Source: Thermodesulfovibrionales bacterium
Lineage (GTDB): Bacteria; Nitrospirota; Thermodesulfovibrionia; Thermodesulfovibrionales; UBA6898
Reading direction: 5' to 3'
DNA: 64,000 nucleotides
Assembly: GCA_046706685.1 (NCBI GenBank)
Contig: JBJKPE010000052.1
Span: forward strand, 2,198 to 66,197
Numbering within the stretch: the first letter of the stretch is position 1; each line of letters begins with the position of its first letter. The position numbers were made by a program, and so were the translations under genes. This document shows, in pieces, positions 35,504-46,613 of this stretch. Below the pieces are notes generated by a model, which was not told the DNA's origin, did not search any database, and saw only the letters and a program-made list of their open reading frames with translations.

Positions 35504-35873
35504 AGAAACACGCACTCCCTCCGGCCGATATCATGTGGGTTCTCCCGCACGAGCTGACGCATTTGCGGTGCTGTATGATACTCCGTACACAAGTCCCCAT
35601 AGTCCCGCCGAAAGAGGAGGAGCCTCAGTTGCGGGTATTTACCCAAGGGAACAAACGCCTGCCAGCATAATGATAAGTCTCCGGAGTATGTGCGGAAATC
35701 GTCGCGTCATAACCCTACCCATCAGCTGCTTCTGTTCTTTTGAACAATCAACGGTGTATTACTCTCGTTGGCTTTAACCATTCCTCGCCGTGGATGGTGC
35801 AAAAAAAGTCGACTTGGTATAAAATTGTTTAGTAATTTATGGTTATGAATCTGTCAAATCGGAACGTAGGGGG

Positions 35874-36158
35874 ATGCATCAGCCGGGGAAAAACCTAATG
35901 TCTAACGAAACAAACTCTTCCATACTGGATAACCAGGGGCGAGGCAAGGTCGGGGAATTTCCTATAGACGAAATCCAGACTGTCTCGAAAATTTCGGCGG
36001 CTTTTTGTCCGCATTGCAAGACTATCACTAATCTGAGCGTATCTCTTATTCCTGTCATTGATACTGACCCAGACGGGAAGGAAATAATTTTAACTTCGAG
36101 GACGTATCACTGCGAAAACTGCGGCTTGTTTGTGAGATGTGAGGAGGATGGCCTTTGA
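35874..36158 (+). CDS. Small zinc-ribbon protein (CPHC...CENC), unknown function
   Basis: The 94-aa ORF (or 86 aa from the ATG at 35898) has two CxxC pairs 31 residues apart. Its stop overlaps the TTG start of hsdM by 4 nt. I recognise no family. Confidence 0.45.
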   Translation: MHQPGKNLMSNETNSSILDNQGRGKVGEFPIDEIQTVSKISAAFCPHCKTITNLSVSLIPVIDTDPDGKEIILTSRTYHCENCGLFVRCEEDGL

Positions 36159-38260
36159 CGACGTCACTCAATAAGCCGAAACTCGACAACCTTGCCGAAG
36201 AAATCTGGAAGTCAGCCAATCGGTTGCGCGGCAAGTTCAAGGCATATGAGTACCAGAATGTTGTCCTGCCGATCATAGTTATCCGCCGCCTGGAGTGCGT
36301 GCTGATCAAGTGGCGGGAGGACAAAGCCGCTGAGGTGAAGGCCAAGCGGCCCAAGTTGACGGAGAAGGAATTGGCCAAGCTGGTAAAAGGCCTGGAAACA
36401 AGTACTGCGTCGTTTTCCAACAAGACCGGCTGGACGCTGCGCCGGGTATATGAGGAAGACCATGCCCTGATCGAAGAGAACTTCAGGGCATATATCAACG
36501 GGTTTTCAAAGAATGTCGATGACATTATCGAGCATTTCAACTATCGGGCCACCATAAGCCAGATGGTGAAGAATAACCGCCTTGCACCGATCTTAAACCA
36601 ATATAAGGAGCTGGAACTCGGGCCGGACAAGCTCTCACCGCTGGAGATGGGCTACATCTATGAAGAACTGCTGCGGCGTTTCTCGGAACAAAGCGGCGAG
36701 GAAGCCGGGGAGCACTTCACCCCGCGTGAGGTGATCCGCCTGATGGTAGAGCTGCTCGATATCCCGATCCCGGACAGGCACATATCCATCTATGACCCGG
36801 CGTGCGGAACCGGAGGTATGCTTTCCGTAGCCAAGGAACATCTGCTTGACCGCGCTGCTAATCCTGAAGAGAAGGCCAACGTCGAGAAATTTGTTACTGT
36901 TCATGGACAGGAGATGTCGCCGACCAACTATGCCATCTGCCAGGCCGACCTGCTGATCAAGAACGATAAGCAGGCCAAGGTTTATCTCGGCAACTCGCTT
37001 ATTCCGCATGACCCGCACAGCAGGGAGCCAGGCGATCAGCTTCCTGAACCGAGGCACCAGTTTGATTTCATGCTCTCCAATCCGCCGTTCGGTGTGACCT
37101 GGGGCGGCAAGGATGGTTACGAGGCCGAGGCACGGAAACTGAAGAAGACACGCTACCAGGCGGGCATGCCTCGCGTGAATGACGGCGCACTGCTTTTTTT
37201 GCAGACCATGCTGGCCAAGATGAAGGAGCCGGAGAAAGGCTCCAGTCGCATAGCCATAATTTTCAATGGCTCTCCGCTCTCAAATGGGGACTGCGGTTCC
37301 GGGGAGAGCGAAATCCGCCGCTGGATTCTCGAAAACGACTGGCTCGACGCCATCGTGATGCTTCCCGATCAGCTCTTTTATAATACCGGCATCTTCACAT
37401 ACATCTGGCTGCTGCGAAACGACAAGCCTTCCTCACACGAGGGGCGGGTTATGCTGATCGACGCCCGCCATCAGTATGAGAAGGAGCCCAAATCTTTCGG
37501 CAATAAGCGAAACCGGATAATTGATGCTCATCGCGCCTGGATAGAGGAACGCTATCGTAATGGCTGGAAGAAAGGATATTCAGACGACAACGTTAAGCTG
37601 TTCCGTCGCGATGATTTCGCCTACCACAAGGTCAGTGTCGTCTTCTGGCAGTTCGATGAGAATGACCAGCCGGCCACGATAACAGAGCCTTATGAGAAAA
37701 CATTCAGTGCTGCCAATCTGAAAAAAGAGCAGGAGTTCTATGAAAGTGAGCTTGAGTTTCGGGTTACCCTGTCATTCCCGCTTGGCGGGAATCCTTCCGG
37801 GAAGAAAGATTGCAAGAAATCACCCTCCCTTAATCCCTCCCCTCAAGGGAGGGAAAATGTTACACCCTCGCCCCTTGGGGGAGAGGGGAGGGAGAGGGGT
37901 AATTCGGAGACAGTTACAAGGGTGGTTTCATTTAGCCTTTCTCCAAAAGACAATGCAGCAAAGAAGTTAAAAGAACTGATGGACGACAAGCCGGAGGTCC
38001 TCTCAGCAGAATGGACCCACCGGCATTATGTTAAGGATGATGAATACATCCCGCACGGCGAGGACATCGAAACGTTTCTAAAGCGTGAGATCGCCAAGCC
38101 TATCATCCGCTGGGAGGACAGCCCCCAGTTCGGCTATGAAATCCTGCCGAACAAGTACTTCTACCGCTACCAACCACCTACACCGGCGAAGGAGTTGCTT
38201 GAAGAGTTTTGGCGTCTTGAAAAAGAGGCGGAAAAGTTGCTTGAGGGTTTGGCGACGTGA
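36155..38260 (+). CDS. hsdM: Type I restriction-modification system, DNA methyltransferase subunit M
   Basis: The HsdM N-terminal domain is LAEEIWKSANRLRG. The AdoMet motif is DPACGTGGML and the catalytic motif is NPPF (LSNPPFG). The 701-aa length includes a ~44-aa repeat-derived insertion. Confidence 0.9.
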   Translation: MTTSLNKPKLDNLAEEIWKSANRLRGKFKAYEYQNVVLPIIVIRRLECVLIKWREDKAAEVKAKRPKLTEKELAKLVKGLETSTASFSNKTGWTLRRVYEEDHALIEENFRAYINGFSKNVDDIIEHFNYRATISQMVKNNRLAPILNQYKELELGPDKLSPLEMGYIYEELLRRFSEQSGEEAGEHFTPREVIRLMVELLDIPIPDRHISIYDPACGTGGMLSVAKEHLLDRAANPEEKANVEKFVTVHGQEMSPTNYAICQADLLIKNDKQAKVYLGNSLIPHDPHSREPGDQLPEPRHQFDFMLSNPPFGVTWGGKDGYEAEARKLKKTRYQAGMPRVNDGALLFLQTMLAKMKEPEKGSSRIAIIFNGSPLSNGDCGSGESEIRRWILENDWLDAIVMLPDQLFYNTGIFTYIWLLRNDKPSSHEGRVMLIDARHQYEKEPKSFGNKRNRIIDAHRAWIEERYRNGWKKGYSDDNVKLFRRDDFAYHKVSVVFWQFDENDQPATITEPYEKTFSAANLKKEQEFYESELEFRVTLSFPLGGNPSGKKDCKKSPSLNPSPQGRENVTPSPLGGEGRERGNSETVTRVVSFSLSPKDNAAKKLKELMDDKPEVLSAEWTHRHYVKDDEYIPHGEDIETFLKREIAKPIIRWEDSPQFGYEILPNKYFYRYQPPTPAKELLEEFWRLEKEAEKLLEGLAT
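37769..37900. repeat. In-frame MITE-like/GC-hairpin repeat insertion inside hsdM
   Basis: It starts with ctgtcattcccgc...gcgggaatcc, the same terminus as the element at 46747. Two GC hairpins follow (tccctccc-ctcaa-gggaggga; ccctcgcccc-ttg-ggggagaggg). It translates as low-complexity LSFPLGGNPSGKKDCKKSPSLNPSPQGRENVTPSPLGGEGRERG. Confidence 0.5.
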
Positions 38261-39591
38261 TGATTCGGGCTAATGAACCTTGGCTGGGGGTCGTGCCTGC
38301 CGACTGGCCGCCAAGCCGCGTTAGAAATGTGGCCCAACTGTCGCCGGGTTACTCCGATGGCCTTCCCGTTTCAGACGAACTATGCACAGTCGTTCCCATG
38401 GAGCTTCTCTCTGAAGATGGCAGGCTCGATATTAGCTCTTCTAAGATGTTCGAAGAAATTACTGGCGGGCTTACGCTGTTCGAAGCTGGAGACGTTCTTT
38501 TTGCCAAGATCACTCCGTGCATGGAAAACGGTAAAGGTGCCTTTATAGAGAGTCTGCCGACACGGTATGCGTTTGGCAGCACAGAGTTTCATGTCCTTCG
38601 CCCGAAGCACGCCGTACACCCAAAGTTTCTCTACTACTACACGTTTAATCCGATATATCGCGCCTATGCAGCTGCCAACATGTCTGGTGCTGCAGGACAG
38701 AAACGGGTCTCTTCCCGCTTTCTAAAGGACACTCGGCTATTTCTTCCTCCGTTTCCTGAACAAGAGCGTATTGCGGCGTTTCTTGATGCGAGTTGTGCGG
38801 CAATTGATGCGGCAGTGGCGGCTAAACGGCGACAGATCGAGACACTCAATAAAATGCTTGTTTCTACTATCGAGACCGCTGCAACGCAAGGTATAGACAC
38901 CCAAGTTAAGATGAAGCCTTCGGGACTCGATTGGCTTCCTCAAGTGCCGGCACACTGGAAGGTGCAACAGATCAAGCGTCGTTGTAAATTGCTTCGCGGA
39001 AAGTTTAGCCATAGGCCACGAAATGACCCGGCTCTTTATGAGGGCGAGTATCCGTTTGTGCAAACGGGTGATATCACGGCTGCAGAAAAGTACATACGTC
39101 ACTACTCTCAAACTCTCAACGAACTTGGGTATAGCGTGAGCAAGATATTCCCAAGGGGAACACTCGTCATGTCTATTGCAGCAAATGTTGGCGACGTGGC
39201 AATTCTCGACTTCGAGGCTTGCTTTCCGGATAGTATGGTCGGTCTAGTGCCTGATCATCATACTGACCTTGACTTCCTCTACTATCTGATGAAGGCTATG
39301 AAGGGAATTCTTCTGAGATCGGCTGTTCTTACAACTCAGCTGAATTTGAACTATGTTCGCATCGGGACAAATTTCGCCGCATTCCCACAGAAGAAGGAGC
39401 AGTGCAAGATTGCAAAGTTTTTAGATACAAGAAGTGCTGAGACCCGAAAGGCGGTTGGTATTCTGCAAAAACAGATCGAGGTTCTTACCGCCTACCGCAA
39501 GTCCCTTATCCACGAATGCGTCACGGGCCAGCGGCGGATTACCGAGGCTGATGTGGCGCGAGCGGCCAAGGTAGATGCTCATGGCGCGTAA
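38257..39591 (+). CDS. hsdS: Type I restriction-modification system, specificity subunit S
   Basis: Two target-recognition domains are separated by conserved helices (PPFPEQERIAAFLD...IETLNKML and FPQKKEQCKIAKFLD...IEVLTAYRKSLIHECVTG). It overlaps the hsdM stop. An alternative ATG lies at 38260. Confidence 0.9.
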   Translation: MMIRANEPWLGVVPADWPPSRVRNVAQLSPGYSDGLPVSDELCTVVPMELLSEDGRLDISSSKMFEEITGGLTLFEAGDVLFAKITPCMENGKGAFIESLPTRYAFGSTEFHVLRPKHAVHPKFLYYYTFNPIYRAYAAANMSGAAGQKRVSSRFLKDTRLFLPPFPEQERIAAFLDASCAAIDAAVAAKRRQIETLNKMLVSTIETAATQGIDTQVKMKPSGLDWLPQVPAHWKVQQIKRRCKLLRGKFSHRPRNDPALYEGEYPFVQTGDITAAEKYIRHYSQTLNELGYSVSKIFPRGTLVMSIAANVGDVAILDFEACFPDSMVGLVPDHHTDLDFLYYLMKAMKGILLRSAVLTTQLNLNYVRIGTNFAAFPQKKEQCKIAKFLDTRSAETRKAVGILQKQIEVLTAYRKSLIHECVTGQRRITEADVARAAKVDAHGA

Positions 39592-40120
39592 AGCGGGCAG
39601 GAAAATAGTGATTATCGCCGGGCCGAACGGCGCCGGGAAAACAACCTTTGCCCTTGAGTATCTGCCGAATGAAGGAGAATGCCCTATCTTCGTGAATGCC
39701 GACTTAATCGCAGCGGGCATTTCTCCGTTTCTTCCCGAACAGGCCGCCTTCCATGCAGGCAGACTGATGATGGATGAAATCAAGAGGCACGTGCTTAATG
39801 GTGAAAGTTTTGCCTTTGAAACGACTCTGAGCGGCAAGACTTATGCCCAAATGATCCCTGAATGGCAGCGACTGGGTTACAGCATAAAGCTGATTTTTCT
39901 TTATCTTCCTGATGTAAGAATTGCCGTTGAACGGGTAAAATATCGTGTCGGACAGGGTGGCCATAATATACCTGAAAAAACTATCAGACGCCGGTACGAA
40001 AAGGGCTGGCGAAACTTTCAGAACATCTATAGGCAGTTGGTTGATGCGTGGGTTCTTTTTGACAACTCGGGTGCAACCCCAAAGCTGGTTGATAAAGGAG
40101 AAAAATATGGCCAGGGTTAG
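39575..40120 (+). CDS. Zeta-toxin/COG4185-like P-loop NTPase (small kinase fold)
   Basis: Walker A is IIAGPNGAGKTT. FVNADLIA, FAFETTLSG, LIFLYLP and GGHNIPE..IRRRY follow the COG4185/zeta pattern as I recall it. It overlaps the hsdS end by 17 nt (an alternative ATG lies at 39581). Confidence 0.7.
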   Translation: MLMARKAGRKIVIIAGPNGAGKTTFALEYLPNEGECPIFVNADLIAAGISPFLPEQAAFHAGRLMMDEIKRHVLNGESFAFETTLSGKTYAQMIPEWQRLGYSIKLIFLYLPDVRIAVERVKYRVGQGGHNIPEKTIRRRYEKGWRNFQNIYRQLVDAWVLFDNSGATPKLVDKGEKYGQG

Positions 40121-40286
40121 ACAGCAGATTCGGGATAAAGACCTTGCAGGTGCTGAAGCGGCCCTTCGGCGAGCCGCCAGGAAGGCAAAAATTATCGCCA
40201 GACAAACTAACACACCCTTAGTGGTATATGAAAGAGGGAATGTCGTAAAAAAGTATGCAGGCAGGGGAAAGAGTAAACAGTCATAA
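40107..40286 (+). CDS. 59-aa basic protein, putative partner (antitoxin-like) of the P-loop protein
   Basis: The sequence is MARVRQQIRDKDLAGAEAALRRAARKAKIIARQTNTPLVVYERGNVVKKYAGRGKSKQS. It has its own AAAGGAG RBS 6 nt upstream. It overlaps the preceding gene by 14 nt and ends 6 nt before hsdR. In the track it is only the tail of a 113-aa frame. Confidence 0.5.
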   Translation: MARVRQQIRDKDLAGAEAALRRAARKAKIIARQTNTPLVVYERGNVVKKYAGRGKSKQS

Positions 40287-40292
40287 AAACTT

Positions 40293-43229
40293 ATGAGCCG
40301 CGCGAGAAAGAAAAAGCCCGAACTGACCTTCCAGCAGCATATCGCAGACTTCCTCGTCCGCGTTCACGGCTATGGCGTACTCGAACAGTCCGACATCACT
40401 GACACCTGGCACTGCATAGCCGAAGACCTGCTTTGGGCCTTCCTTAACGCCACGCAAGCCGATCAGCTTAAGAAGTTGAAAGACGACTACGGCACTGACG
40501 CGCGGGAGGAGGTGTTCCGGACGCTGCGCAAGGAGCTGGAGAGTACGCCGCTCTGGATGATCCTGCGCCATGGGCTGAAGGTGCGAGGTTTGGAGTTTCG
40601 GTTGTTCTACCCAAAACCGCGCTCCAGCGAAAGTGCTGCGGCAAAGAAGCACGGCGAAAACCGCATCACCTTCCGGCCGCATTTCTACTTCGGCGAAAAC
40701 AATAAAGAGATCGATTTCGTATTCTTCCTGAATGGCCTGCCCATCGCGGCGCTGGAGGTCAAGCACGAGAAAAACCAGAACGTTCATGATGCTGTAGCGC
40801 AGTTCGCGGCGCGCGATCATTCCCTTCGAATCTTCCAGCACCCTTTTCTCTACCTGGCCGCGGACACCAGCGACGTTATGGCGGCAACAGATCCGCGCCG
40901 GACTGAGAACTTCCGTTGGCACAACACCGGCCTGACCAACGCACCCCTGACAGAGGAAGAATATGCGGTAGAGTTCCTGTACCGCGAAGTGTTGTCAAAG
41001 GACGAGTTGCTGGAGCTGTTGTCGTTCTTCCTGGTCCGTGTGTCCAGGCGCGAGGCGGAAGAAGACAAGCCTGAGCGGCCTGCATTCACTATTCTGCCGC
41101 GTTACCATCAAAGCCGCATGGTGCGGAAGGTGGCGGAAGATGCCGTGGCACATTTTTCAGCTACTGGCGATATCGGCCGTAAGTATCTGATTGATCATTC
41201 TGCCGGCAGCGGCAAAACGCTTTCCATCTGCTGGCTTGCCGACCGGCTGCACAGCCTCTTCAAGCCGGGTACAAACGACAAGCTTGTAGATATGGTATTT
41301 ATTCTCACTGACAGGAAGTCACTCGACAAGAACATCAGGGACGACATCGAGAAGTTTACCCACCTGAAAGATGTGGTGGGCCTTGCGCGCAGAGCCGACG
41401 ACCTGCCCCGGTATCTCAGGGAGCGGAAACCGATCATAGTAACAACGCAGCAGAAGTTCGCCTGGGTGCTGGATGAGATCGGAAAAAAGCCGGAACTCAA
41501 AGACTTGCGCGTGGCCTTTTTGATTGACGAAGCACATCGTTCGCAGGAAGGCCAGATGGGGGTAGCCATCCGTGTGCCATTCCGCAAAGCAGACGACCCC
41601 GACACAGAAGACGCCGAGGACAACGGGGAGAATGAAGAAGAGAAGATAGCCCGGATCATCCGGGAGCACGACCTCAATCAGCTCTTTGTCGCCTTTACTG
41701 CCACCCCGGCCCCTGCAACTGTGACCCTGTTCGGCGCACCTTTCGACACCTACACAGAGGCAGAAGCAATCGCCGAGGGATACATCGTGGACGTGGCCGC
41801 GAGCATCATTTCCTATAAGACCCTCTACAATCTGCATTGCCCGGTTGTTCCGAACCCTGATGAGGAAAAGCTCTACCCGAAAGGTGTAGTCGCAAAGGCT
41901 TTGAAAAACGTTGCATATCAGGATGACGGGCTCATCCAGTACAAGGCGGAGGTTATGCTTCGCATCTTCGATGAGGACGTGAAGCAGCTCATCGGAGGGC
42001 GGGCAAAGGCGATGATTGTGGCGACTTCGCGTGTGGCAGGCCTGCGATACTTCAACATCATCAAGGAGAAGCTCAGGGAGCGTGGAGCTGACTACAAGGC
42101 GCTCTATGCATTTTCGGATTTCGTCCACCCGGCAACTAACGAGGCGATCAGTGAACACGCGATTAATGAATTGAACGACGGGGAGCCGATCGAGGACCGT
42201 TTTGAGGGAGACGACTATCGGCTGATGATCGTTGCGAACAAGTTTCAGACCGGATTTGACCAGCCGTTGCTCGCCGGCATGTTCCTCGACAAGCCGGTGG
42301 TCGACCGCAATGCGGTGCAGACGGTATCGCGGCTGAACCGCAGCCATGAAGGCAAGAAGGATGTCGTGGTGGTGGACTTCACGAACAATGCCTCGGCGAT
42401 TCTCAAGGCATTCGCGAAGTACCGCAAGGGAACGCCGTTTGAGCCGGAGGAGCCCGATCCCGAGCTGTGCAGCAGATTGCATTCAGAGATTCTTGCTGCA
42501 GGCGTCTTCACGCAGGCCGACGCTCATGACTTCGTGAAATTGGCCGCAACCGGCACAGACGCCCAGGTTCAGTTCGCCATCAAAGGGCTGCGCATGCGGT
42601 TTCAGACGAAACTTCTGTCCCCCGAAAGTCGCAAGGGCTATGTCTATCAACTGGCCCGGCTCGTTAAGAGCTTTCACTTTATGACGTGCTTCTTCACTTA
42701 TCCGGACGTGATAAAGGAATTTGTCGCATTTGCGGAATATGTGGGTCCTCAGCTCATCAAACAGGGCAGCGTGTCCGAGTTGATGAGGCAGATCCGGCAG
42801 ACCGAGGTGGTCAAGGCAGCCGTAGAGTATAAAGGCGAGGTGCATGCCACCGGCGGCGAAGTTAAGCTCAAGCCAGGTGGAGGCAAGAGAGCGGCAGGAC
42901 CGCCGCCACAGAAGGTTTCCGTGCAAGGCATGATCGATGAGATCCGAGCCAGGTTCGAAATAAGCGACGAAGAGGCACTCTACATCAAACAAGTAACGGC
43001 GGAAAAAGCGGAGGACCCAGTCATCCATAGCACAGTCCAGGCTCATCGTGAAGATCGTATATTCCTTGAAACTGCTTACAGGGGCCAGGTGAACGGGGCG
43101 ATACAGAAAAAATATGGAGAGTTGGCAAGATACGACGAACTGGCTGATCCGAAATATACGGATACAGGCGGCATATTCGACATTATGTCTGTAACGGTGA
43201 TTCAGAGCCATCTCGCGGCGGCAGCATGA
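40293..43229 (+). CDS. hsdR: Type I restriction endonuclease subunit R (SF2 helicase/nuclease)
   Basis: An N-terminal PD-(D/E)xK-type region (EIDFVFFLNGLPIAALEVK) is followed by helicase motif I SAGSGKT and motif II DEAH (LIDEAHRSQ). The protein is 978 aa. Confidence 0.9.
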   Translation: MSRARKKKPELTFQQHIADFLVRVHGYGVLEQSDITDTWHCIAEDLLWAFLNATQADQLKKLKDDYGTDAREEVFRTLRKELESTPLWMILRHGLKVRGLEFRLFYPKPRSSESAAAKKHGENRITFRPHFYFGENNKEIDFVFFLNGLPIAALEVKHEKNQNVHDAVAQFAARDHSLRIFQHPFLYLAADTSDVMAATDPRRTENFRWHNTGLTNAPLTEEEYAVEFLYREVLSKDELLELLSFFLVRVSRREAEEDKPERPAFTILPRYHQSRMVRKVAEDAVAHFSATGDIGRKYLIDHSAGSGKTLSICWLADRLHSLFKPGTNDKLVDMVFILTDRKSLDKNIRDDIEKFTHLKDVVGLARRADDLPRYLRERKPIIVTTQQKFAWVLDEIGKKPELKDLRVAFLIDEAHRSQEGQMGVAIRVPFRKADDPDTEDAEDNGENEEEKIARIIREHDLNQLFVAFTATPAPATVTLFGAPFDTYTEAEAIAEGYIVDVAASIISYKTLYNLHCPVVPNPDEEKLYPKGVVAKALKNVAYQDDGLIQYKAEVMLRIFDEDVKQLIGGRAKAMIVATSRVAGLRYFNIIKEKLRERGADYKALYAFSDFVHPATNEAISEHAINELNDGEPIEDRFEGDDYRLMIVANKFQTGFDQPLLAGMFLDKPVVDRNAVQTVSRLNRSHEGKKDVVVVDFTNNASAILKAFAKYRKGTPFEPEEPDPELCSRLHSEILAAGVFTQADAHDFVKLAATGTDAQVQFAIKGLRMRFQTKLLSPESRKGYVYQLARLVKSFHFMTCFFTYPDVIKEFVAFAEYVGPQLIKQGSVSELMRQIRQTEVVKAAVEYKGEVHATGGEVKLKPGGGKRAAGPPPQKVSVQGMIDEIRARFEISDEEALYIKQVTAEKAEDPVIHSTVQAHREDRIFLETAYRGQVNGAIQKKYGELARYDELADPKYTDTGGIFDIMSVTVIQSHLAAAA

Positions 43230-43894
43230 AACGTCCATTCGCGAAAATACCGAAGGATGAACGGCCGCGAGAAAAGCTGCTAGCACGCGGCGCCAAGTCT
43301 CTGAATGATCAGGAACTGCTTGCCATTCTAATTGGCAAAGGTACTCCCAGGATGGATGTGATGACTCTTGCGGCTAAGCTCTCCAAAGTCATAGACGAAA
43401 AAGGGATTGAACTGCGACCGGAGGATCTTGCATCTTTCGACGGTATAGGAGATGCCAAATCTACGCTAATACTTGCGGCGATAGAGTTCGCGCGGCGTCG
43501 AATAAAGCCAGAAGGAATAAAAATCGAGACACCGGCCGACTTGCTGCCTTTAATACGCCATTATGCTGATCGCAGGCAGGAGCATTTCATAGCTGCTTCT
43601 GTTAACGGCGCAAATGAGGTAATGAATATTCGGGTTGTGTCAATTGGTTCTGTGGATCGTACGACAGTTCATCCGCGCGAGGTCTTTGCTGGTGTGCTTG
43701 CTGACAGGGCCAGCGGAGTAATCGTCGCTCACAATCATCCGGCTGGTGTCCTTAATCCGTCAGTCTGGGATCTCGATATCACCAGGCAGCTGAAGGCAGC
43801 CGGGGAGGTTGTAGGGTTGATTTTACTGGATCATATCATTTTCAACAGAACAGGCTATTACAGCTTTCTCGAAAATGGAGCATTGGGGGGATGA
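43226..43894 (+). CDS. radC: RadC-like JAB/MPN-domain protein
   Basis: The N-terminal HhH region is RPREKLLARGAKSLNDQELLAILIG. The JAMM motif is HNHPAGVLNPSVWD. There is an ATGA overlap with the hsdR stop. Confidence 0.85.
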   Translation: MKRPFAKIPKDERPREKLLARGAKSLNDQELLAILIGKGTPRMDVMTLAAKLSKVIDEKGIELRPEDLASFDGIGDAKSTLILAAIEFARRRIKPEGIKIETPADLLPLIRHYADRRQEHFIAASVNGANEVMNIRVVSIGSVDRTTVHPREVFAGVLADRASGVIVAHNHPAGVLNPSVWDLDITRQLKAAGEVVGLILLDHIIFNRTGYYSFLENGALGG

Positions 43895-43955
43895 TCCGTA
43901 CTTTTTGCATTCTCGCGCCGGATGTGTGACGTAAGGCATAGGCAGGAGGCATATC

Positions 43956-44141
43956 ATGATTAAGACCCAGGTTATCAAGGAAGACAATAAGCCGGTCGCG
44001 GTAATTCTTGATTACAATGAATATAAGAGATTGAAGGAAATCGAGCAGGACAAGGCCGACTATTACTCTGCTGTCTCGGTCAAAGCAAAGAACAAGAAGT
44101 GGACAAGTCACGCAGAACTGAAATCCCGACTTGGCGTGTAA
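43956..44141 (+). CDS. Phd/YefM-like type II antitoxin (61 aa)
   Basis: KPVAVILDYNEYKRLKEIEQD matches the Phd/YefM core pattern. An AGGAGG RBS lies 7 nt upstream. Confidence 0.5.
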   Translation: MIKTQVIKEDNKPVAVILDYNEYKRLKEIEQDKADYYSAVSVKAKNKKWTSHAELKSRLGV

Positions 44142-44336
44142 CAAAGTAACCCTGCCGTCTCTCGCAGCGCGTCACGAATTGCCGGCATTTTTCTCGAAGC
44201 TTCCCCGGCCTCGCAAAACAATGGGAGAATCTTTGGGTCTGCGCTTGATCATATTCCTGCGAAGCGAGGTTAACCGGATAGACACTGATCGAGCAAACTC
44301 ACGGCCTTTCTTTCCTTCCCAACATTATTTTCGCCT
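44131..44336 (+). pseudogene. Possible decayed RelE/ParE-type toxin remnant
   Basis: The frame overlaps the antitoxin stop. It reads NKVTLPSLAARHEL...LPRPRK...GLRLIIFLRSEVNRIDTDR, which resembles RelE/ParE landmarks with internal deletions. It has no stop of its own and runs antisense into the next gene. Confidence 0.25.
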
Positions 44337-46613
44337 TCAGATCTTCCATGAAAGCACGCTGAGGATATTCGAGAAATCGTCGGTCCATACGGGAGATCTG
44401 CGGGAATGGCGAAGAATGTGCCATCTCGGGTCTACGATCAGCCCGGCGAGCGGATCCTTACGGCGGGCCATGGCGACCCATACGGACCGTTCCTTTCCGT
44501 GCATGATGTCGGATCTGCTCAGATCCGCATCATCGCGAATCACGCCGACCAAACCCGCGTCATGGGCAAGGTCTGCGACTACCCCTGCCAGATCGAGTCG
44601 CCGGTTCGTTATATTGAAAACCAGCATGCCGCCGTCCGCCAGCTTATCGAGGTATAACTTCAGGGCTTCGCGTGTAACAAGGTGGATCGGGATGGAATCG
44701 GAACTGAAGGCATCCAGAACAATCAGACCATAGTGGTGGTCGGGGGTGTCCCCCAGTCGCAGCCGTGCGTCACCCGTTATTATATTCAGGCTCTTTGCGC
44801 GAGTGTTCTTCAGGAACGTAAAATAATGTGCGTCTCGGGCAATGCGCTCGACAGCCGGGTCGATTTCGTAAAAAGTCCAGTCCTCAGACGGCTTGGCATA
44901 AGTAGCCAGTGTGCCAGTCCCCAGTCCGACAACGGCAATGGTCGGGGGAGCCGAAGAGGACTCAAAGGCCGACATTACTTGACCGATCGGGCCGCTCGTG
45001 AAATAGTACGAGAGTGGTTCATTACTGAGCTCCGGCTTAAGGCTTTGCCGGCCGTGGAGGGTATCGCCGTGCATAAGCTGATGGTATTTTCCTTCCGCAT
45101 CCACCGTCACCCGCAGCGTTCCAAAGAAATTCCTCTCCATCAAAAGCGGGCTGCCAAGAACGCCTGTAAAAAGGAGGCTGGCTGCGAGGATCCCCCCTAA
45201 CCCGAGGCTGAAGCGGACGGGCCTTCTTACGGTACGGTATGTCAATAGGGCAGGCAAGGCGAATATGCAGAGCGCACTCAGCCGGCCGAGATTCACCCCT
45301 GATGTCTGTACGATGAGTATCGACGATGCGGTCAGAAGCCCGATGGCAACCGGCCAGTTCAAGTCCCGGAATCCAACCTCCGGCAGTGGAGCCGCACCTG
45401 CCTGCCTCTCGCCCGACGGTCGAATGGCACAGGCAAGCACCATGACCAGCGGATATTCCAGCAGGCTGTGAAACAAAAGAGGGGCCAGGAGGGCATTGAA
45501 CATGCCTCCGAGCACGCCGCCGAGGGATATACACAAATAAAACTCGGTGAGACGATGGGCCGCAGGGCGGCTCTTAGCAATTTCTCCGTGGCAGATTATG
45601 GCTGCCGACCCGAACATCAGCAGGTTCAGAGACACCATCAGCCAAGCCAAGTGGGTCGCACCTGCGATGAAGGCAACTAGCAACACGACCGTACACAAAC
45701 TGAGCATGCGACCGACCCACGGAGGCGGCAGGAAGGGGCGTCTCGCAAACACAAGGATGAATGTGAGCAGGTAGATCGCCAGCGGCACGACCCACAAGAG
45801 CGGAAACGGTGCGACATCCGTGGTCAGGTATGTCGTCACCCCCAGCATCAAACTCGAAGGTATAAACGCAAGAAGTATCCACCACCATCTCCGTGGAACG
45901 GGGTCGTCCGCGTCCAGGCTCTTCTTTACGGTCTCATCGCTTCGCACGCATGCACTTCCCTCTCGACCACAATCTGAATGCCTGGTCGAATAGGCAACGG
46001 CCTCCGTTTTGTGCGGCTTCGACCGCCACAGCACAGACGAGCAGACGCCGATACACACCGCCAGGAGCCCGTATCCACCCGCCCAGATTCTGCTTTGCTG
46101 CATGAGGCGAAGGTGAGGTTCGATGAGTAGCGGATAACTCAACAGTCCCAGCATGCTACCCGCATTGCTCGCCGCATACAGAAAATAGGGATCGCCTGCC
46201 AACCGATGATCTGCCTCGGCAAACCATCTTTGGAGAAGCGGCGCTGTTGCGGATATGACCAGAAGAGGCAGACCGGCAGATATTGTCAGAAAACCGAGCA
46301 GCCACGGTACGGGGTCGGCAGAACCGGGTAGTGACGCCAGGGCGGCCTTGCTGATCCCGATGGGCAGCAGCGCCAGCGGAAACAGGATTATACCCAGGTG
46401 CATCAATGCCTGGCGCCGGGCAGTGAGCCATCGAGTCGACAAATGAGCATATAAATAGCCCAGAAGCAGGACCGACTGAAAAAACACCATGCACGTGTTC
46501 CAGACCGCCGGGACCCCTCCCAGAAGAGGGAGGACCATCTTTCCGATCATCGGTTCGACGACAAAGAGCAGTGCCGCGCTGAGGAATAGCGTTGCTGAGT
46601 AAAGAAAAACCAT
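44337..46613 (-). CDS. Fused polytopic membrane domain / spermidine-synthase-like (class I MTase fold) protein
   Basis: The N-terminal ~480 aa contain many TM helices. The C-terminal aminopropyltransferase-like domain reads VVGLGTGTLATY...ITGDARL...LIVLDAFSSDSIPIHLVTREA...GGMLVFN. Confidence 0.8.
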   Translation of the reverse strand: MVFLYSATLFLSAALLFVVEPMIGKMVLPLLGGVPAVWNTCMVFFQSVLLLGYLYAHLSTRWLTARRQALMHLGIILFPLALLPIGISKAALASLPGSADPVPWLLGFLTISAGLPLLVISATAPLLQRWFAEADHRLAGDPYFLYAASNAGSMLGLLSYPLLIEPHLRLMQQSRIWAGGYGLLAVCIGVCSSVLWRSKPHKTEAVAYSTRHSDCGREGSACVRSDETVKKSLDADDPVPRRWWWILLAFIPSSLMLGVTTYLTTDVAPFPLLWVVPLAIYLLTFILVFARRPFLPPPWVGRMLSLCTVVLLVAFIAGATHLAWLMVSLNLLMFGSAAIICHGEIAKSRPAAHRLTEFYLCISLGGVLGGMFNALLAPLLFHSLLEYPLVMVLACAIRPSGERQAGAAPLPEVGFRDLNWPVAIGLLTASSILIVQTSGVNLGRLSALCIFALPALLTYRTVRRPVRFSLGLGGILAASLLFTGVLGSPLLMERNFFGTLRVTVDAEGKYHQLMHGDTLHGRQSLKPELSNEPLSYYFTSGPIGQVMSAFESSSAPPTIAVVGLGTGTLATYAKPSEDWTFYEIDPAVERIARDAHYFTFLKNTRAKSLNIITGDARLRLGDTPDHHYGLIVLDAFSSDSIPIHLVTREALKLYLDKLADGGMLVFNITNRRLDLAGVVADLAHDAGLVGVIRDDADLSRSDIMHGKERSVWVAMARRKDPLAGLIVDPRWHILRHSRRSPVWTDDFSNILSVLSWKI

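What the first reader, a model, noticed from the sequence alone, without database searches (positions are those of the whole stretch)
35874..44336. Type I R-M locus expanded into a nine-ORF, single-strand, overlapping defence island
Every ORF from 35874 to 44141 is co-directional, and the junctions suggest one polycistronic unit. The junctions are: Zn-ribbon/hsdM overlap 4 nt; hsdM/hsdS overlap 4 nt; hsdS/P-loop overlap 17 nt; P-loop/59-aa ORF overlap 14 nt; 59-aa ORF/hsdR gap 6 nt; hsdR/radC overlap 4 nt (ATGA); radC/antitoxin gap 61 nt. Only M, S and R are explained by canonical type I biology. The remaining parts (Zn-ribbon, zeta-like kinase, mini-protein, JAB protein, antitoxin, toxin remnant) are all of kinds seen in defence, conflict or addiction systems. 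The block sits between an MFS pump and a membrane protein, with no integrase, transposase or tRNA at its edges. It is my best candidate in this window for an undescribed composite system.
Basis: partly seen in the sequence, partly recalled or inferred. Interest (0 to 1): 0.75.

Follow-up and report, generated by a model that had tools for sequence, protein, structure and literature searches.

The report
Type I restriction operon carrying cargo
This is a restriction-modification (DNA defence) operon of a widespread environmental family that nearly always ends in a RadC gene and has a slot for extra defence or toxin genes, filled here by a small kinase and its partner; the general pattern is known, but these two accessory parts are not.

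Summary
The "toxin remnant" is the exception: it has no detectable homology.

The block is not one nine-gene system. It has three layers.

1. **Core.** hsdM-hsdS-hsdR is an intact type I R-M.
2. **radC.** It is translationally coupled to hsdR. It follows hsdR in 53 of 66 related loci, so it is a conserved fourth gene of this hsd family.
3. **Cargo.** The zeta-like kinase and the 59-aa ORF form an obligate pair, found together in 81 of 81 loci. The pair is usually found outside hsd loci, but about a quarter of copies sit inside type I or type III R-M operons.

In sister loci the same hsdS-hsdR slot holds other cargo:
- HEC-01
- DUF1016 (PDC-S02)
- Bro-N (PDC-S13)
- HigB-like toxin plus HTH
- AbiE

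The Zn-ribbon ORF is an orphan. Its 5' part belongs to a ~330-nt leader shared with a reverse-transcriptase defence operon. The Phd-like ORF is a weak match and is not conserved.

Embedding of defence genes in R-M operons is already described (PrrC, TgvAB, Payne 2024). What is new:
- The kinase pair is absent from PADLOC.
- RadC is conserved in this family.
- Loss of radC goes with an empty cargo slot.

Verdict: a new variant of a known kind, of moderate interest.

The parts
35680..36010 (+). Leader block of about 330 nt. It holds a promoter-like TTGGTATAAAAT sequence and the first ~45 codons of the Zn-ribbon ORF. The block is shared with a DRT-type reverse-transcriptase operon.
   Evidence: The DNA alignment with L169 is near-identical, with a run of about 60 nt that has a single mismatch. 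Similarity stops abruptly on both sides. A 35-nt core is unique in the window and is found only in L169/L170 (and L171, another contig carrying this same locus) among the 171 loci then held. L169 carries Drt4/Drt6-like RT plus PDC-M36A.
35874..36158 (+). 94-aa ORF with CxxC...CxxC (Zn-ribbon-like). It is an orphan and probably a leader or chimeric ORF, not a conserved component.
   Evidence: No Pfam, NCBIfam or PADLOC family. Only two proteins were found among 5.8 billion: itself and P0242, which is 63% identical over the N-terminal 48 aa only. It is absent upstream of hsdM in 34 of 35 related loci. L010 has an unrelated 94-aa Cys-rich ORF in the same position.
36155..38260 (+). hsdM, the type I N6-adenine methyltransferase (701 aa). 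It carries a 43-aa in-frame, palindrome-rich insertion at about nt 37786-37915.
   Evidence: PF02384 4.7e-56, PF12161 7.6e-17, PADLOC MTase_I PDLC03029 3e-176. DPACGTGG and NPPF motifs are visible in the sequence. The insertion is seen against four homologues. Inverted repeats were found.
38257..39591 (+). hsdS, the specificity subunit with two target-recognition domains (444 aa).
   Evidence: PF01420 2e-25 with two stretches; PADLOC Specificity_I 1.8e-75.
39575..40120 (+). Minimal zeta-toxin/PNK-like P-loop kinase (181 aa, probably ~174-179 aa from a later start codon). It is the predicted toxin or effector of the embedded pair.
   Evidence: PF06414 3.5e-8, above the gathering score. The AF2 model has pLDDT 84. 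The best Foldseek matches are PezT 2p5t and zeta 1gvn/3q8x (TMq 0.70-0.74), followed by the Clostridium thermocellum Pnkp kinase. Invariant residues across homologues include the Walker A motif, Asp43 and the ETT motif. All 8000 scored candidates matched at E<=0.001.
40107..40286 (+). 59-aa partner of the kinase ('mini'), the predicted antitoxin or adaptor. The model is a long helix plus a beta-hairpin.
   Evidence: A homologue lies directly downstream of the kinase gene in 81 of 81 loci. The conserved core is AL.RAA..AR..A..TGTP.VV..dGk.V. It has no Pfam, PDB-sequence or PDB-fold relative. The AF2 single-sequence model gives helix 2-33 and hairpin 38-50 at pLDDT 79.
40293..43229 (+). hsdR, the restriction subunit: a PD-ExK nuclease plus an SF2 motor (978 aa).
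   Evidence: PF18766 7.3e-25, PF04851, PF22679, PF04313; TIGR00348 6e-58; PADLOC REase_I 3.5e-33. IDF...ALEVK, GSGKT and DEAH motifs are visible in the translation.
43226..43894 (+). radC, an HhH N-domain plus a RadC-type JAB domain (222 aa). It is coupled to hsdR by an ATGA overlap and is a conserved fourth gene of this hsd family.
   Evidence: PF04002 9e-35, PF20582 2e-19, TIGR00608 170 bits (cut-off 133.85). HNHPAG...S..D motif is intact. It lies directly after hsdR in 53 of 66 related loci. The two RadC relatives sampled, at 82% (P0153) and 72% (P0210) identity, both lie directly after hsdR.
43956..44141 (+). 61-aa Phd/RelB-like ORF. It is a possible orphan antitoxin and is not a conserved part of the locus.
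   Evidence: PF02604 2.8e-5 and TIGR01552, both below their curated cut-offs. It has no homologue in any related locus and none in plasmids. Other loci carry different TA genes after radC.
44142..44336 (+). No gene could be identified in it.
   Evidence: Three-frame translation. No Pfam match at E<=10.

Best explanation
The locus is a modular type I restriction-modification operon from a widely transferred environmental hsd family. It has three layers.

**1. Core.** hsdM, hsdS and hsdR are intact. They should methylate self DNA and cut unmodified DNA in the usual way.

**2. radC.** A RadC-type HhH+JAB gene is translationally coupled to the end of hsdR and is inherited with it. I infer that it is an accessory factor of this R-M family. 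The likely roles are a Zn-dependent hydrolase acting on DNA, or on HsdR stalled on DNA.

**3. Cargo slot.** The gap between hsdS and hsdR accepts self-contained defence or toxin modules. Here it holds a minimal zeta/PNK-like kinase followed by a ~60-aa partner that always travels with it.

I infer that the pair works as a toxin-first toxin-antitoxin or abortive-infection module, in these steps:
- The partner holds the kinase inactive.
- When phage attack or loss of the operon stops its supply, the kinase phosphorylates an essential metabolite or nucleic-acid end and arrests the cell.
- This backs up restriction and stabilises the operon.

The Zn-ribbon ORF, the Phd-like ORF and the downstream spacer are local debris of a recombination-prone defence site. 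They are not components of a system.

**Shown:** gene identities, intact motifs, the obligate kinase-partner pairing, recurrent embedding in R-M operons, radC conservation, and the variable slot.
**Inferred:** toxicity, neutralisation by the partner, the trigger, and the role of RadC.
For: **Gene identities and junctions**
-.

**The kinase-partner pair**
- The partner is present directly downstream of the kinase in 81 of 81 loci, across many phyla.
- The kinase has a zeta/PezT-like fold with invariant Walker A, Asp43 and ETT residues.
- The pair occurs as a Tn3 passenger on a Legionella plasmid.
- It occurs as a moron next to a tail tape-measure gene on a viral contig.
- More distant homologues sit in the kle/par stability region of E. 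coli IncP-like plasmids.
- In Synechocystis pSYSG it lies between hsdS and DarT/DarG genes (in the related strain locus L060, hsdR follows the DarT/DarG genes), where it was listed among TA-related genes.

**Embedding in R-M operons**
- The commonest Pfam families among its 121 immediate neighbours are Methylase_S (9), N6_N4_Mtase (6), ResIII (6), N6_Mtase (4) and HSDR_N (4).
- The two closest relatives sampled (84% identity) are both R-M embedded.

**The variable slot**
- 40 of 63 sister loci carry cargo between hsdS and hsdR.
- The cargo identified in sampled loci is HEC-01A/B, PDC-S02 (DUF1016), PDC-S13 (Bro-N), Gp49/HigB plus HTH, and DUF6088 plus AbiEii.

**radC**
- It follows hsdR in 53 of 66 loci, typically after a gap of about 8 nt.
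- RadC relatives at 72% and 82% identity are all linked to hsdR.
- It was not found near the distantly related type I families that also host the kinase pair.
Against: - No experiment exists on any member. Toxicity of the kinase and neutralisation by the partner are untested.
- The kinase resembles bacterial polynucleotide kinase almost as well as zeta toxins. The best sequence match in the PDB is Pnkp1 at E 6e-4. It could therefore be a nucleic-acid end kinase rather than a toxin.
- The partner lies downstream and is unrelated to the epsilon and PezA antitoxins.
- About three quarters of copies of the pair are not next to R-M genes. The link to restriction may be a matter of insertion preference rather than function.
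- None of the 80 closest hsdR relatives found in metagenomes carries the pair.
- The role of RadC is pure inference, and 13 of 66 family members do without it.
Confidence: 0.65

Rival explanations
1. All nine ORFs form one integrated, undescribed defence system. The Zn-ribbon, kinase, mini-protein, RadC and antitoxin would all cooperate with HsdMSR.
For: - The ORFs are co-directional and overlap.
- The six-gene core M-S-zeta-mini-R-radC recurs in L010 and L061.
Against: - The Zn-ribbon ORF and the Phd-like ORF are absent from every related locus.
- The toxin remnant is undetectable.
- The kinase pair is absent from all 80 closest hsdR relatives. Other cargo takes its place there.
- The pair mostly lives outside hsd loci.
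Confidence: 0.05
2. The kinase pair is a PrrC-style guardian of the R-M enzyme. It would be held inactive through contact with HsdMSR and released when a phage anti-restriction protein blocks the enzyme.
For: - Its position inside the operon matches prrC in EcoprrI.
- It is embedded recurrently in type I and type III R-M operons of unrelated families.
- Its closest relatives are R-M embedded.
Against: - The pair has its own invariant partner. It is found without any R-M on plasmids, a Tn3 element, a prophage and next to housekeeping genes. It therefore cannot depend on one R-M enzyme.
- It is embedded in R-M systems of different types, which share no common surface.
- It has no homology to PrrC.
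Confidence: 0.12
3. The kinase is a polynucleotide 5'-kinase used for nucleic-acid end healing, for example repair of tRNA or DNA nicked during conflict. It would not be a toxin, and the small protein would be an adaptor.
For: - The best sequence match in the PDB is the Pnkp1 kinase domain, E 6e-4.
- Foldseek TM-scores normalised by target length are highest for the C. thermocellum Pnkp kinase, at 0.69-0.71.
Against: - The Pfam zeta-toxin model matches above its gathering score.
- The top Foldseek E-values go to PezT and zeta.
- The contexts are typical of addiction modules: Tn3 passenger, plasmid stability region, prophage moron.
- No ligase or phosphatase partner is nearby.
Confidence: 0.13
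4. The accessory genes are merely selfish passengers: TA modules and a hitch-hiking radC that landed in a permissive operon. They would have no effect on defence.
For: - The pair is mobile and often outside R-M contexts.
- TA genes also pile up after radC in other loci.
Against: - Sister cargo in the same slot includes HEC-01, which PADLOC carries as an embedded defence candidate and the source paper reports as active.
- R-M genes are strongly over-represented next to the pair.
- radC stays coupled to hsdR across phyla.
Confidence: 0.2

Closest known systems
Type I R-M operons with embedded accessory defence genes: EcoprrI-PrrC, V. cholerae T1RM-TgvAB, and the HEC/PDC candidates of Payne et al. 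2024
   Same: - Extra genes sit between hsd genes, co-oriented and tightly packed.
- Sister loci of this very family carry HEC-01, PDC-S02 and PDC-S13 in the same slot.
   Different: - The cargo here (zeta-like kinase plus ~60-aa partner) matches no PADLOC model, although that library includes the HEC and PDC sets.
- Unlike PrrC, it has its own partner and mostly occurs outside R-M loci.
Epsilon/zeta and PezAT toxin-antitoxin systems (UDP-GlcNAc kinases)
   Same: - PF06414 match above the gathering score.
- Best structural matches, TMq 0.70-0.74.
- Walker A plus a conserved Asp after strand 2.
- A two-gene module with a small partner.
- Plasmid and transposon contexts.
   Different: - Much smaller: about 175 aa against 250-290.
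- 13-17% identity.
- The partner is encoded downstream and is unrelated to epsilon or PezA.
- Substrate and toxicity are unknown.
Synechocystis sp. PCC 6803 pSYSG genes sll8004-ssl8003
   Same: - True homologues: kinase 57% identical, partner E 2e-21 to my profile.
- They lie directly downstream of hsdS on pSYSG (hsdR follows in the related locus L060), together with an MNT gene and DarT/DarG genes.
   Different: - They sit in a different, distantly related hsd family without radC.
- They were only listed as 'genes related to TA modules' that failed the authors' criteria, and were never tested.
RadC/YicR family (HhH + RadC-type JAB domain)
   Same: Full-length two-domain architecture with an intact HxH...S..D metal motif. 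TIGR00608 is above its cut-off.
   Different: - Here it is fixed to the 3' end of hsdR in a horizontally spread R-M family.
- The literature held here links RadC domains to ArdC anti-restriction modules, DinG helicases and conjugative elements, not to hsdR.
- No function is established.
Bacterial polynucleotide kinase (Clostridium thermocellum Pnkp, Pnkp1 kinase domain)
   Same: Similar size and fold. It is the best PDB sequence match.
   Different: - There are no phosphatase or ligase domains or partners.
- The Pfam zeta-toxin model fits better.
- The contexts are those of addiction modules.

Membership tests
Type I restriction-modification system (HsdM/HsdS/HsdR) | HsdM with an N-terminal HsdM_N domain and an N6-adenine methyltransferase domain carrying the AdoMet and NPPF motifs | tested here: met
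   PF12161 7.6e-17 and PF02384 4.7e-56. PADLOC MTase_I 3e-176. DPACGTGG and LSNPPFG are visible in the translation.
Type I restriction-modification system (HsdM/HsdS/HsdR) | HsdS with two target-recognition domains | tested here: met
   PF01420 matches in two stretches. Full-length match to PADLOC Specificity_I, 1.8e-75.
Type I restriction-modification system (HsdM/HsdS/HsdR) | HsdR with a PD-(D/E)xK nuclease domain and an SF2 ATP-dependent motor | tested here: met
   PF04313, PF18766, PF04851, PF22679. TIGR00348 6e-58, but below its curated cut-off (196.8 against 284.55), so this is a divergent family. IDF..ALEVK, GSGKT and DEAH motifs are seen.
Type I restriction-modification system (HsdM/HsdS/HsdR) | Sequence-specific methylation and ATP-dependent cleavage of unmodified DNA | not testable with these tools
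   Needs methylome sequencing and restriction assays.
Zeta toxin family (PF06414; epsilon/zeta, PezAT) | Profile match and zeta-type P-loop kinase fold with Walker A and a catalytic Asp | tested here: met
   PF06414 33.5 bits against a cut-off of 22.3. Foldseek top hits are 2p5t, 3q8x and 1gvn. K22, D43 and E82-T83-T84 are invariant.
Zeta toxin family (PF06414; epsilon/zeta, PezAT) | Upstream epsilon- or PezA-type antitoxin | tested here: not met
   The partner is downstream and has no Pfam, PDB-sequence or PDB-fold relative.
Zeta toxin family (PF06414; epsilon/zeta, PezAT) | Growth arrest through phosphorylation of UDP-GlcNAc (or NAD for AvrRxo1), neutralised by the partner | not testable with these tools
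   Needs expression and metabolite assays.
RadC family | UPF0758 HhH N-domain plus a RadC-type JAB domain with metal-binding motif | tested here: met
   PF20582 1.7e-19 and PF04002 9.3e-35. TIGR00608 170 bits against 133.85. NF000642 178.6 against 180, just below. HNHPAG...S..D is seen.
Phd/YefM-type antitoxin with cognate toxin | Profile match above the curated threshold | tested here: inconclusive
   PF02604 24.2 bits against 29.8. TIGR01552 18 against 20.8. Only the central ~25 residues match.
Phd/YefM-type antitoxin with cognate toxin | Adjacent toxin gene (Doc, RelE, ParE or similar) | tested here: not met
   No Pfam match in 44131-44430 at E<=10. All frames were read.
Known or candidate defence systems in PADLOC-DB v2 (including HEC/PDC) other than RM type I | Significant match of the accessory proteins to a PADLOC model | tested here: not met
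   The Zn-ribbon ORF, mini, RadC and Phd-like ORF have no hits. The kinase has only P-loop-level hits at E>=1.6e-3. The library does recognise the sister cargo as HEC-01, PDC-S02 and PDC-S13.

The most novel reading that the evidence does not exclude
RadC is a working fourth component of this type I R-M family and connects restriction to the embedded cargo. Its JAB/HhH protein might clear or process HsdR stalled on DNA, or sense that state, and so license or trigger the toxin or Abi module held in the hsdS-hsdR slot. That would explain why independent losses of radC coincide with an empty slot. The zeta-like kinase pair would then be one of several interchangeable effectors of a RadC-dependent, restriction-coupled abortive-infection platform.
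Probability: 0.12. Interest if true: 0.8.

Novelty: new variant of a known kind. Interest (0 to 1): 0.5.

Why it matters
**RadC.** It is one of the most widespread bacterial proteins without a function. A family of type I R-M operons that keeps radC welded to hsdR across phyla gives a concrete, testable setting for it. The possible roles to test are restriction efficiency, restriction alleviation, and tolerance of embedded toxins.

**The kinase pair.** It is a large family: all 8000 scored candidates matched, it spans many phyla, and it has a copy in the model cyanobacterium Synechocystis 6803. It is missing from current defence catalogues, yet its commonest neighbours are R-M genes. That makes it a good candidate for a new toxin-antitoxin or abortive-infection module.

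**The slot.** The family shows a clean cargo slot between hsdS and hsdR, which is useful for guilt-by-embedding discovery in environmental genomes.

Tried and rejected
- **Toxin remnant.** Three-frame translation and Pfam at E<=10 found nothing. An earlier attempt failed on stop codons. tblastn of the Phd-like ORF against plasmids found no match, so no cognate toxin could be borrowed for comparison.
- **Zn-ribbon ORF as a family.** Only one partial relative was found. Pfam on that relative and on the L010 Cys-rich ORF gave nothing useful. I dropped my idea that its N-terminus is a remnant of a larger gene, for lack of evidence.
- **The partner protein.** The Pfam scan of 31 members, the PDB profile search and the Foldseek search were all negative. 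A model of the kinase-partner complex could not be run.
- **Payne et al. supplementary tables.** They are truncated in the library, so the kinase could not be looked up there. The PADLOC scan served as a substitute.
- **L163 cargo.** The 178-aa and 49-aa genes are not related to the kinase pair. The 178-aa protein is PDC-S13-like.
- **Promoter and terminator scan.** Uninformative. Rfam found nothing in the block.
- **The leader core.** It was not found in viral contigs.
- **Organism name.** It could not be retrieved.
- **Literature.** Searches for a RadC-hsdR link returned only coincidental co-mentions.

Full report
**Observation**

- Zn-ribbon ORF 35874-36158 overlaps hsdM (36155-38260, TTG start behind a GAGGAGGA site) by 4 nt.
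- hsdM overlaps hsdS (38257-39591) by 4 nt.
- hsdS overlaps the P-loop gene (39575-40120) by 17 nt. The overlap is 11 nt from the second ATG, and homologues are ~174 aa.
- The P-loop gene overlaps a 59-aa ORF (40107-40286, AAAGGAG ribosome-binding site) by 14 nt.
- hsdR (40293-43229) starts 6 nt later.
- radC (43226-43894) overlaps hsdR by ATGA.
- A 61-aa ORF (43956-44141) follows after 61 nt.

Profile searches confirm M, S, R, a zeta-toxin-family P-loop protein and RadC. The 61-aa ORF matches Phd/RelB models only below their cut-offs.

The ninth item, a 'toxin remnant' at 44142-44336, could not be confirmed. No frame gives any Pfam match even at E<=10.

The flanks are an MFS pump and a membrane protein without a family. 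The only tRNA in the window is 8.7 kb away.

**The kinase and the 59-aa ORF are one obligate, mobile module**

The P-loop protein belongs to a very large family. All 8000 scored candidates matched at E<=0.001, and the best were 65-87% identical.

I fetched 80 loci from reference genomes with a profile of this family. An iterated profile then found a homologue of the 59-aa ORF directly downstream of the kinase gene in 81 of 81 loci, counting L001, a second contig carrying this same locus.

The partner has a conserved core, AL.RAA..AR..A..TGTP.VV..dGk.V. It has no relative in Pfam, in PDB sequences or in PDB folds. A single-sequence model gives one long helix and a beta-hairpin.

The kinase model (pLDDT 84) is closest to PezT and zeta toxins (TMq 0.70-0.74). 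Bacterial polynucleotide kinase comes a close second. By sequence alone the best solved relative is the Pnkp1 kinase domain, E 6e-4. The Walker A lysine, an Asp after strand 2 and an E-T-T motif are invariant.

Where the pair is found:
- Directly behind a Tn3 transposase on a Legionella plasmid, though my partner profile did not detect the 64-aa ORF there.
- Next to a tape-measure gene on a viral contig.
- Beside housekeeping genes in some genomes.
- As more distant relatives in the kle/par stability region of E. coli IncP-like plasmids.

This is how addiction or toxin-antitoxin modules behave. Toxicity itself remains untested.

**The pair has a marked preference for restriction-modification operons**

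The commonest Pfam families among 121 immediate neighbours of the pair were:

| Pfam family | Neighbours |
|---|---|
| Methylase_S | 9 |
| N6_N4_Mtase (type III mod-like) | 6 |
| ResIII | 6 |
| N6_Mtase | 4 |
| HSDR_N | 4 |

Every other family among the 25 listed occurred two or three times, and the threes were further R-M domains.

By my count, about 20 of 80 loci have the pair inside a type I operon (between S and R, or between M and S) or between type III mod and res.

As a rough yardstick, a published control set found PF01420 in 0.3% of random regions. A matched control was not run here.

The two closest relatives I sampled (84% identity) are also embedded. One lies behind an MmeI-like R-M and an AAA_15 ATPase. 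The other lies between hsdS and a decaying hsdR.

The full arrangement hsdM-hsdS-kinase-partner-hsdR-radC recurs in a Deltaproteobacteria MAG (L010) and a Pyrinomonadaceae MAG (L061). It is present in part in L024, and without radC in Thauera phenylacetica (L012).

In Synechocystis the pair sits between hsdS and hsdR, together with an MNT gene and DarT/DarG genes. Kopfmann et al. 2016 listed these five genes as 'related to TA modules' within a defence island but did not study them.

**The hsdS-hsdR gap is a cargo slot**

Using HsdR as the anchor, I fetched 80 metagenomic loci with 73-86% identical HsdR. None carries the kinase pair; there is one fragment in L105.

Of the 63 loci where hsdS is visible:
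- 22 have hsdS within 50 nt of hsdR.
- 40 have 0.75-2.7 kb of other genes in between.
- One has a 153-nt gap.

The cargo identified by Pfam and PADLOC:
- AAA_21 ATPase plus DUF4276 (HEC-01A/B)
- DUF1016/YhcG nuclease (PDC-S02)
- a Bro-N protein (PDC-S13)
- a Gp49/HigB-like toxin with an HTH protein and a Zn-ribbon protein
- DUF6088 plus AbiEii

One locus also has cargo between hsdM and hsdS.

This is the 'embedding' described by Payne et al. 2024, and earlier for PrrC and TgvAB. The PADLOC library used here contains those HEC and PDC models. It does not recognise the kinase, its partner, RadC, the Zn-ribbon ORF or the Phd-like ORF.

**RadC is a conserved fourth gene of this hsd family**

Among loci with a complete hsdR 3' end and at least 300 nt downstream, 53 of 66 have radC directly after hsdR. 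It is 63-74% identical to the window's, usually after about 8 nt.

RadC relatives taken from a separate protein search (82% and 72% identity) are again all hsdR-radC. radC was not found near the distantly related type I systems that host the kinase pair.

The protein has the HhH N-domain and an intact JAB metal motif.

In the papers available here, RadC domains are predicted to be nucleases or nucleic-acid-processing enzymes. They are linked to ArdC anti-restriction modules, DinG helicases and conjugative elements. I found no description of an hsdR-radC operon.

**An unexplained correlation**

On a neighbour-joining tree of HsdR, the radC-less loci are scattered over at least nine places. All but one also have an empty hsdS-hsdR slot.

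| | radC present | radC absent |
|---|---|---|
| Cargo in slot | 34 | 1 |
| Slot empty | 9 | 12 |

Fisher p = 5.6e-6, not corrected for phylogeny. Possible causes are joint streamlining, replacement of the whole 3' half of the operon by recombination, or a functional tie between RadC and the cargo. I cannot tell which.

**The outer genes**

The Zn-ribbon ORF has a single partial relative among 5.8 billion proteins. Only the first 48 residues align. That relative heads an operon with a Drt4/Drt6-type reverse transcriptase and a PDC-M36A-like protein.

At the DNA level, a block of about 330 nt (window ~35680-36010) is shared. It includes a run of about 60 nt that differs at a single base and contains TTGGTATAAAAT, plus the first ~45 codons. 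Similarity ends abruptly on both sides. The non-coding part is better conserved than the coding part. In the coding part, most substitutions I counted by eye change the amino acid.

I read this as a shared promoter or leader in front of two different defence cassettes, with an incidental or chimeric ORF. It does not look like a conserved Zn-ribbon subunit.

Upstream of hsdM, 34 of 35 related loci have nothing comparable. L010 has an unrelated Cys-rich 94-aa ORF, and two loci appear, by eye only (no profile search), to have a small ribbon-helix-helix-like ORF.

After radC, other loci carry other TA genes: PIN modules in L163 and an Unstab_antitox gene in L061. The Phd-like ORF fits a pattern of TA debris at the 3' edge but is not itself conserved.

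**Mechanism, with confidence**

- *Shown:* intact M, S and R with their catalytic motifs; an obligate kinase-partner pair; its preference for R-M operons; the variable slot; radC conservation.
- *Inferred, about 0.5:* the pair is a toxin-first TA or abortive-infection module that backs up restriction and stabilises the operon.
- *Inferred, weaker:* RadC is an accessory hydrolase of this R-M family.

Rivals considered:
- A PrrC-like guardian role. The pair's autonomy and its presence in unrelated R-M types argue against dependence on one enzyme.
- A nucleic-acid end-healing kinase. The structural similarity to Pnkp keeps this open.
- Purely selfish passengers.
The comparative data reject it.

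**Verdict**

The accessory genes do recur with hsd genes, but as separable layers of a known kind of architecture, not as one new system.

The new elements are the kinase pair as an uncatalogued R-M-associated module, RadC as a fixed partner of HsdR in this family, and the radC-cargo correlation.

Noticed in passing
window 37786-37915 (within hsdM): A 43-aa in-frame insertion (FPLGGNPSGKKDCKKSPSLNPSPQGRENVTPSPLGGEGRERGN) is absent from four close HsdM homologues. The DNA is rich in G/C palindromes, with terminal inverted repeats GAAATCACCCT/AGGGTGGTTTC at 37816-37826 and 37919-37929. It looks like a small palindromic element inserted in frame in a variable linker. L166 has a shorter 'PLQGEGR' insert at the same site. 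There is no other copy in the window.
   Followed up: partly
window 35680-36010; L169 about 125-450: A discrete ~330-nt leader is shared between this type I R-M operon and a Drt4/Drt6-type reverse-transcriptase operon. It holds a promoter-like TTGGTATAAAAT and the first ~45 codons of a small ORF. Similarity ends sharply on both sides. It may be a portable promoter or leader, or a recombination junction of a defence hot spot.
   Followed up: partly
L082-L161, with L010, L012 and L061: Loss of radC is scattered over the HsdR tree and coincides with an empty hsdS-hsdR slot (34/1 against 9/12; Fisher p 5.6e-6, uncorrected).
   Followed up: partly
L060 9694-12421; L172 6694-9429 (Synechocystis pSYSG): Three toxin-type modules sit in a row between hsdS and hsdR: an MNT nucleotidyltransferase, the zeta-like kinase with its partner, and a DUF4433 (DarT-type) gene plus a macro-domain (DarG-type) gene.
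   Followed up: partly
L174 1857-5757 (Legionella pneumophila plasmid): The zeta-like kinase and a 64-aa ORF lie immediately after a Tn3-family transposase, like the TA passengers described for Tn3 elements. My partner profile does not detect the 64-aa ORF.
   Followed up: partly
L162 6004-6713 (IMG/VR contig): The kinase pair sits as a moron next to a tape-measure gene on a viral contig. It was the only viral hit.
   Followed up: partly
L093 1957-2998 (same cargo in L094, L114, L118, L156): A three-gene cargo recurs in the slot: a Gp49/HigB-like toxin, an HTH protein, and a 111-aa Zn-ribbon protein. The last has weak matches that include the Lar restriction-alleviation family at E 0.067.
   Followed up: no
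L010 3491-6655: Upstream of the L010 hsd operon lie a 604-aa AriAB/PARIS-like ATPase and a 268-aa protein with weak RT-protease-type hits. A 94-aa Cys-rich ORF then overlaps hsdM by 4 nt, as in the window, but it is unrelated in sequence.
   Followed up: no
window 44131-44733 (+) against 44337-46613 (-): A 200-aa + strand ORF begins 11 nt inside the Phd-like ORF and runs antisense through the 3' end of the 758-aa membrane-protein gene. It has no family match and is probably spurious.
   Followed up: yes
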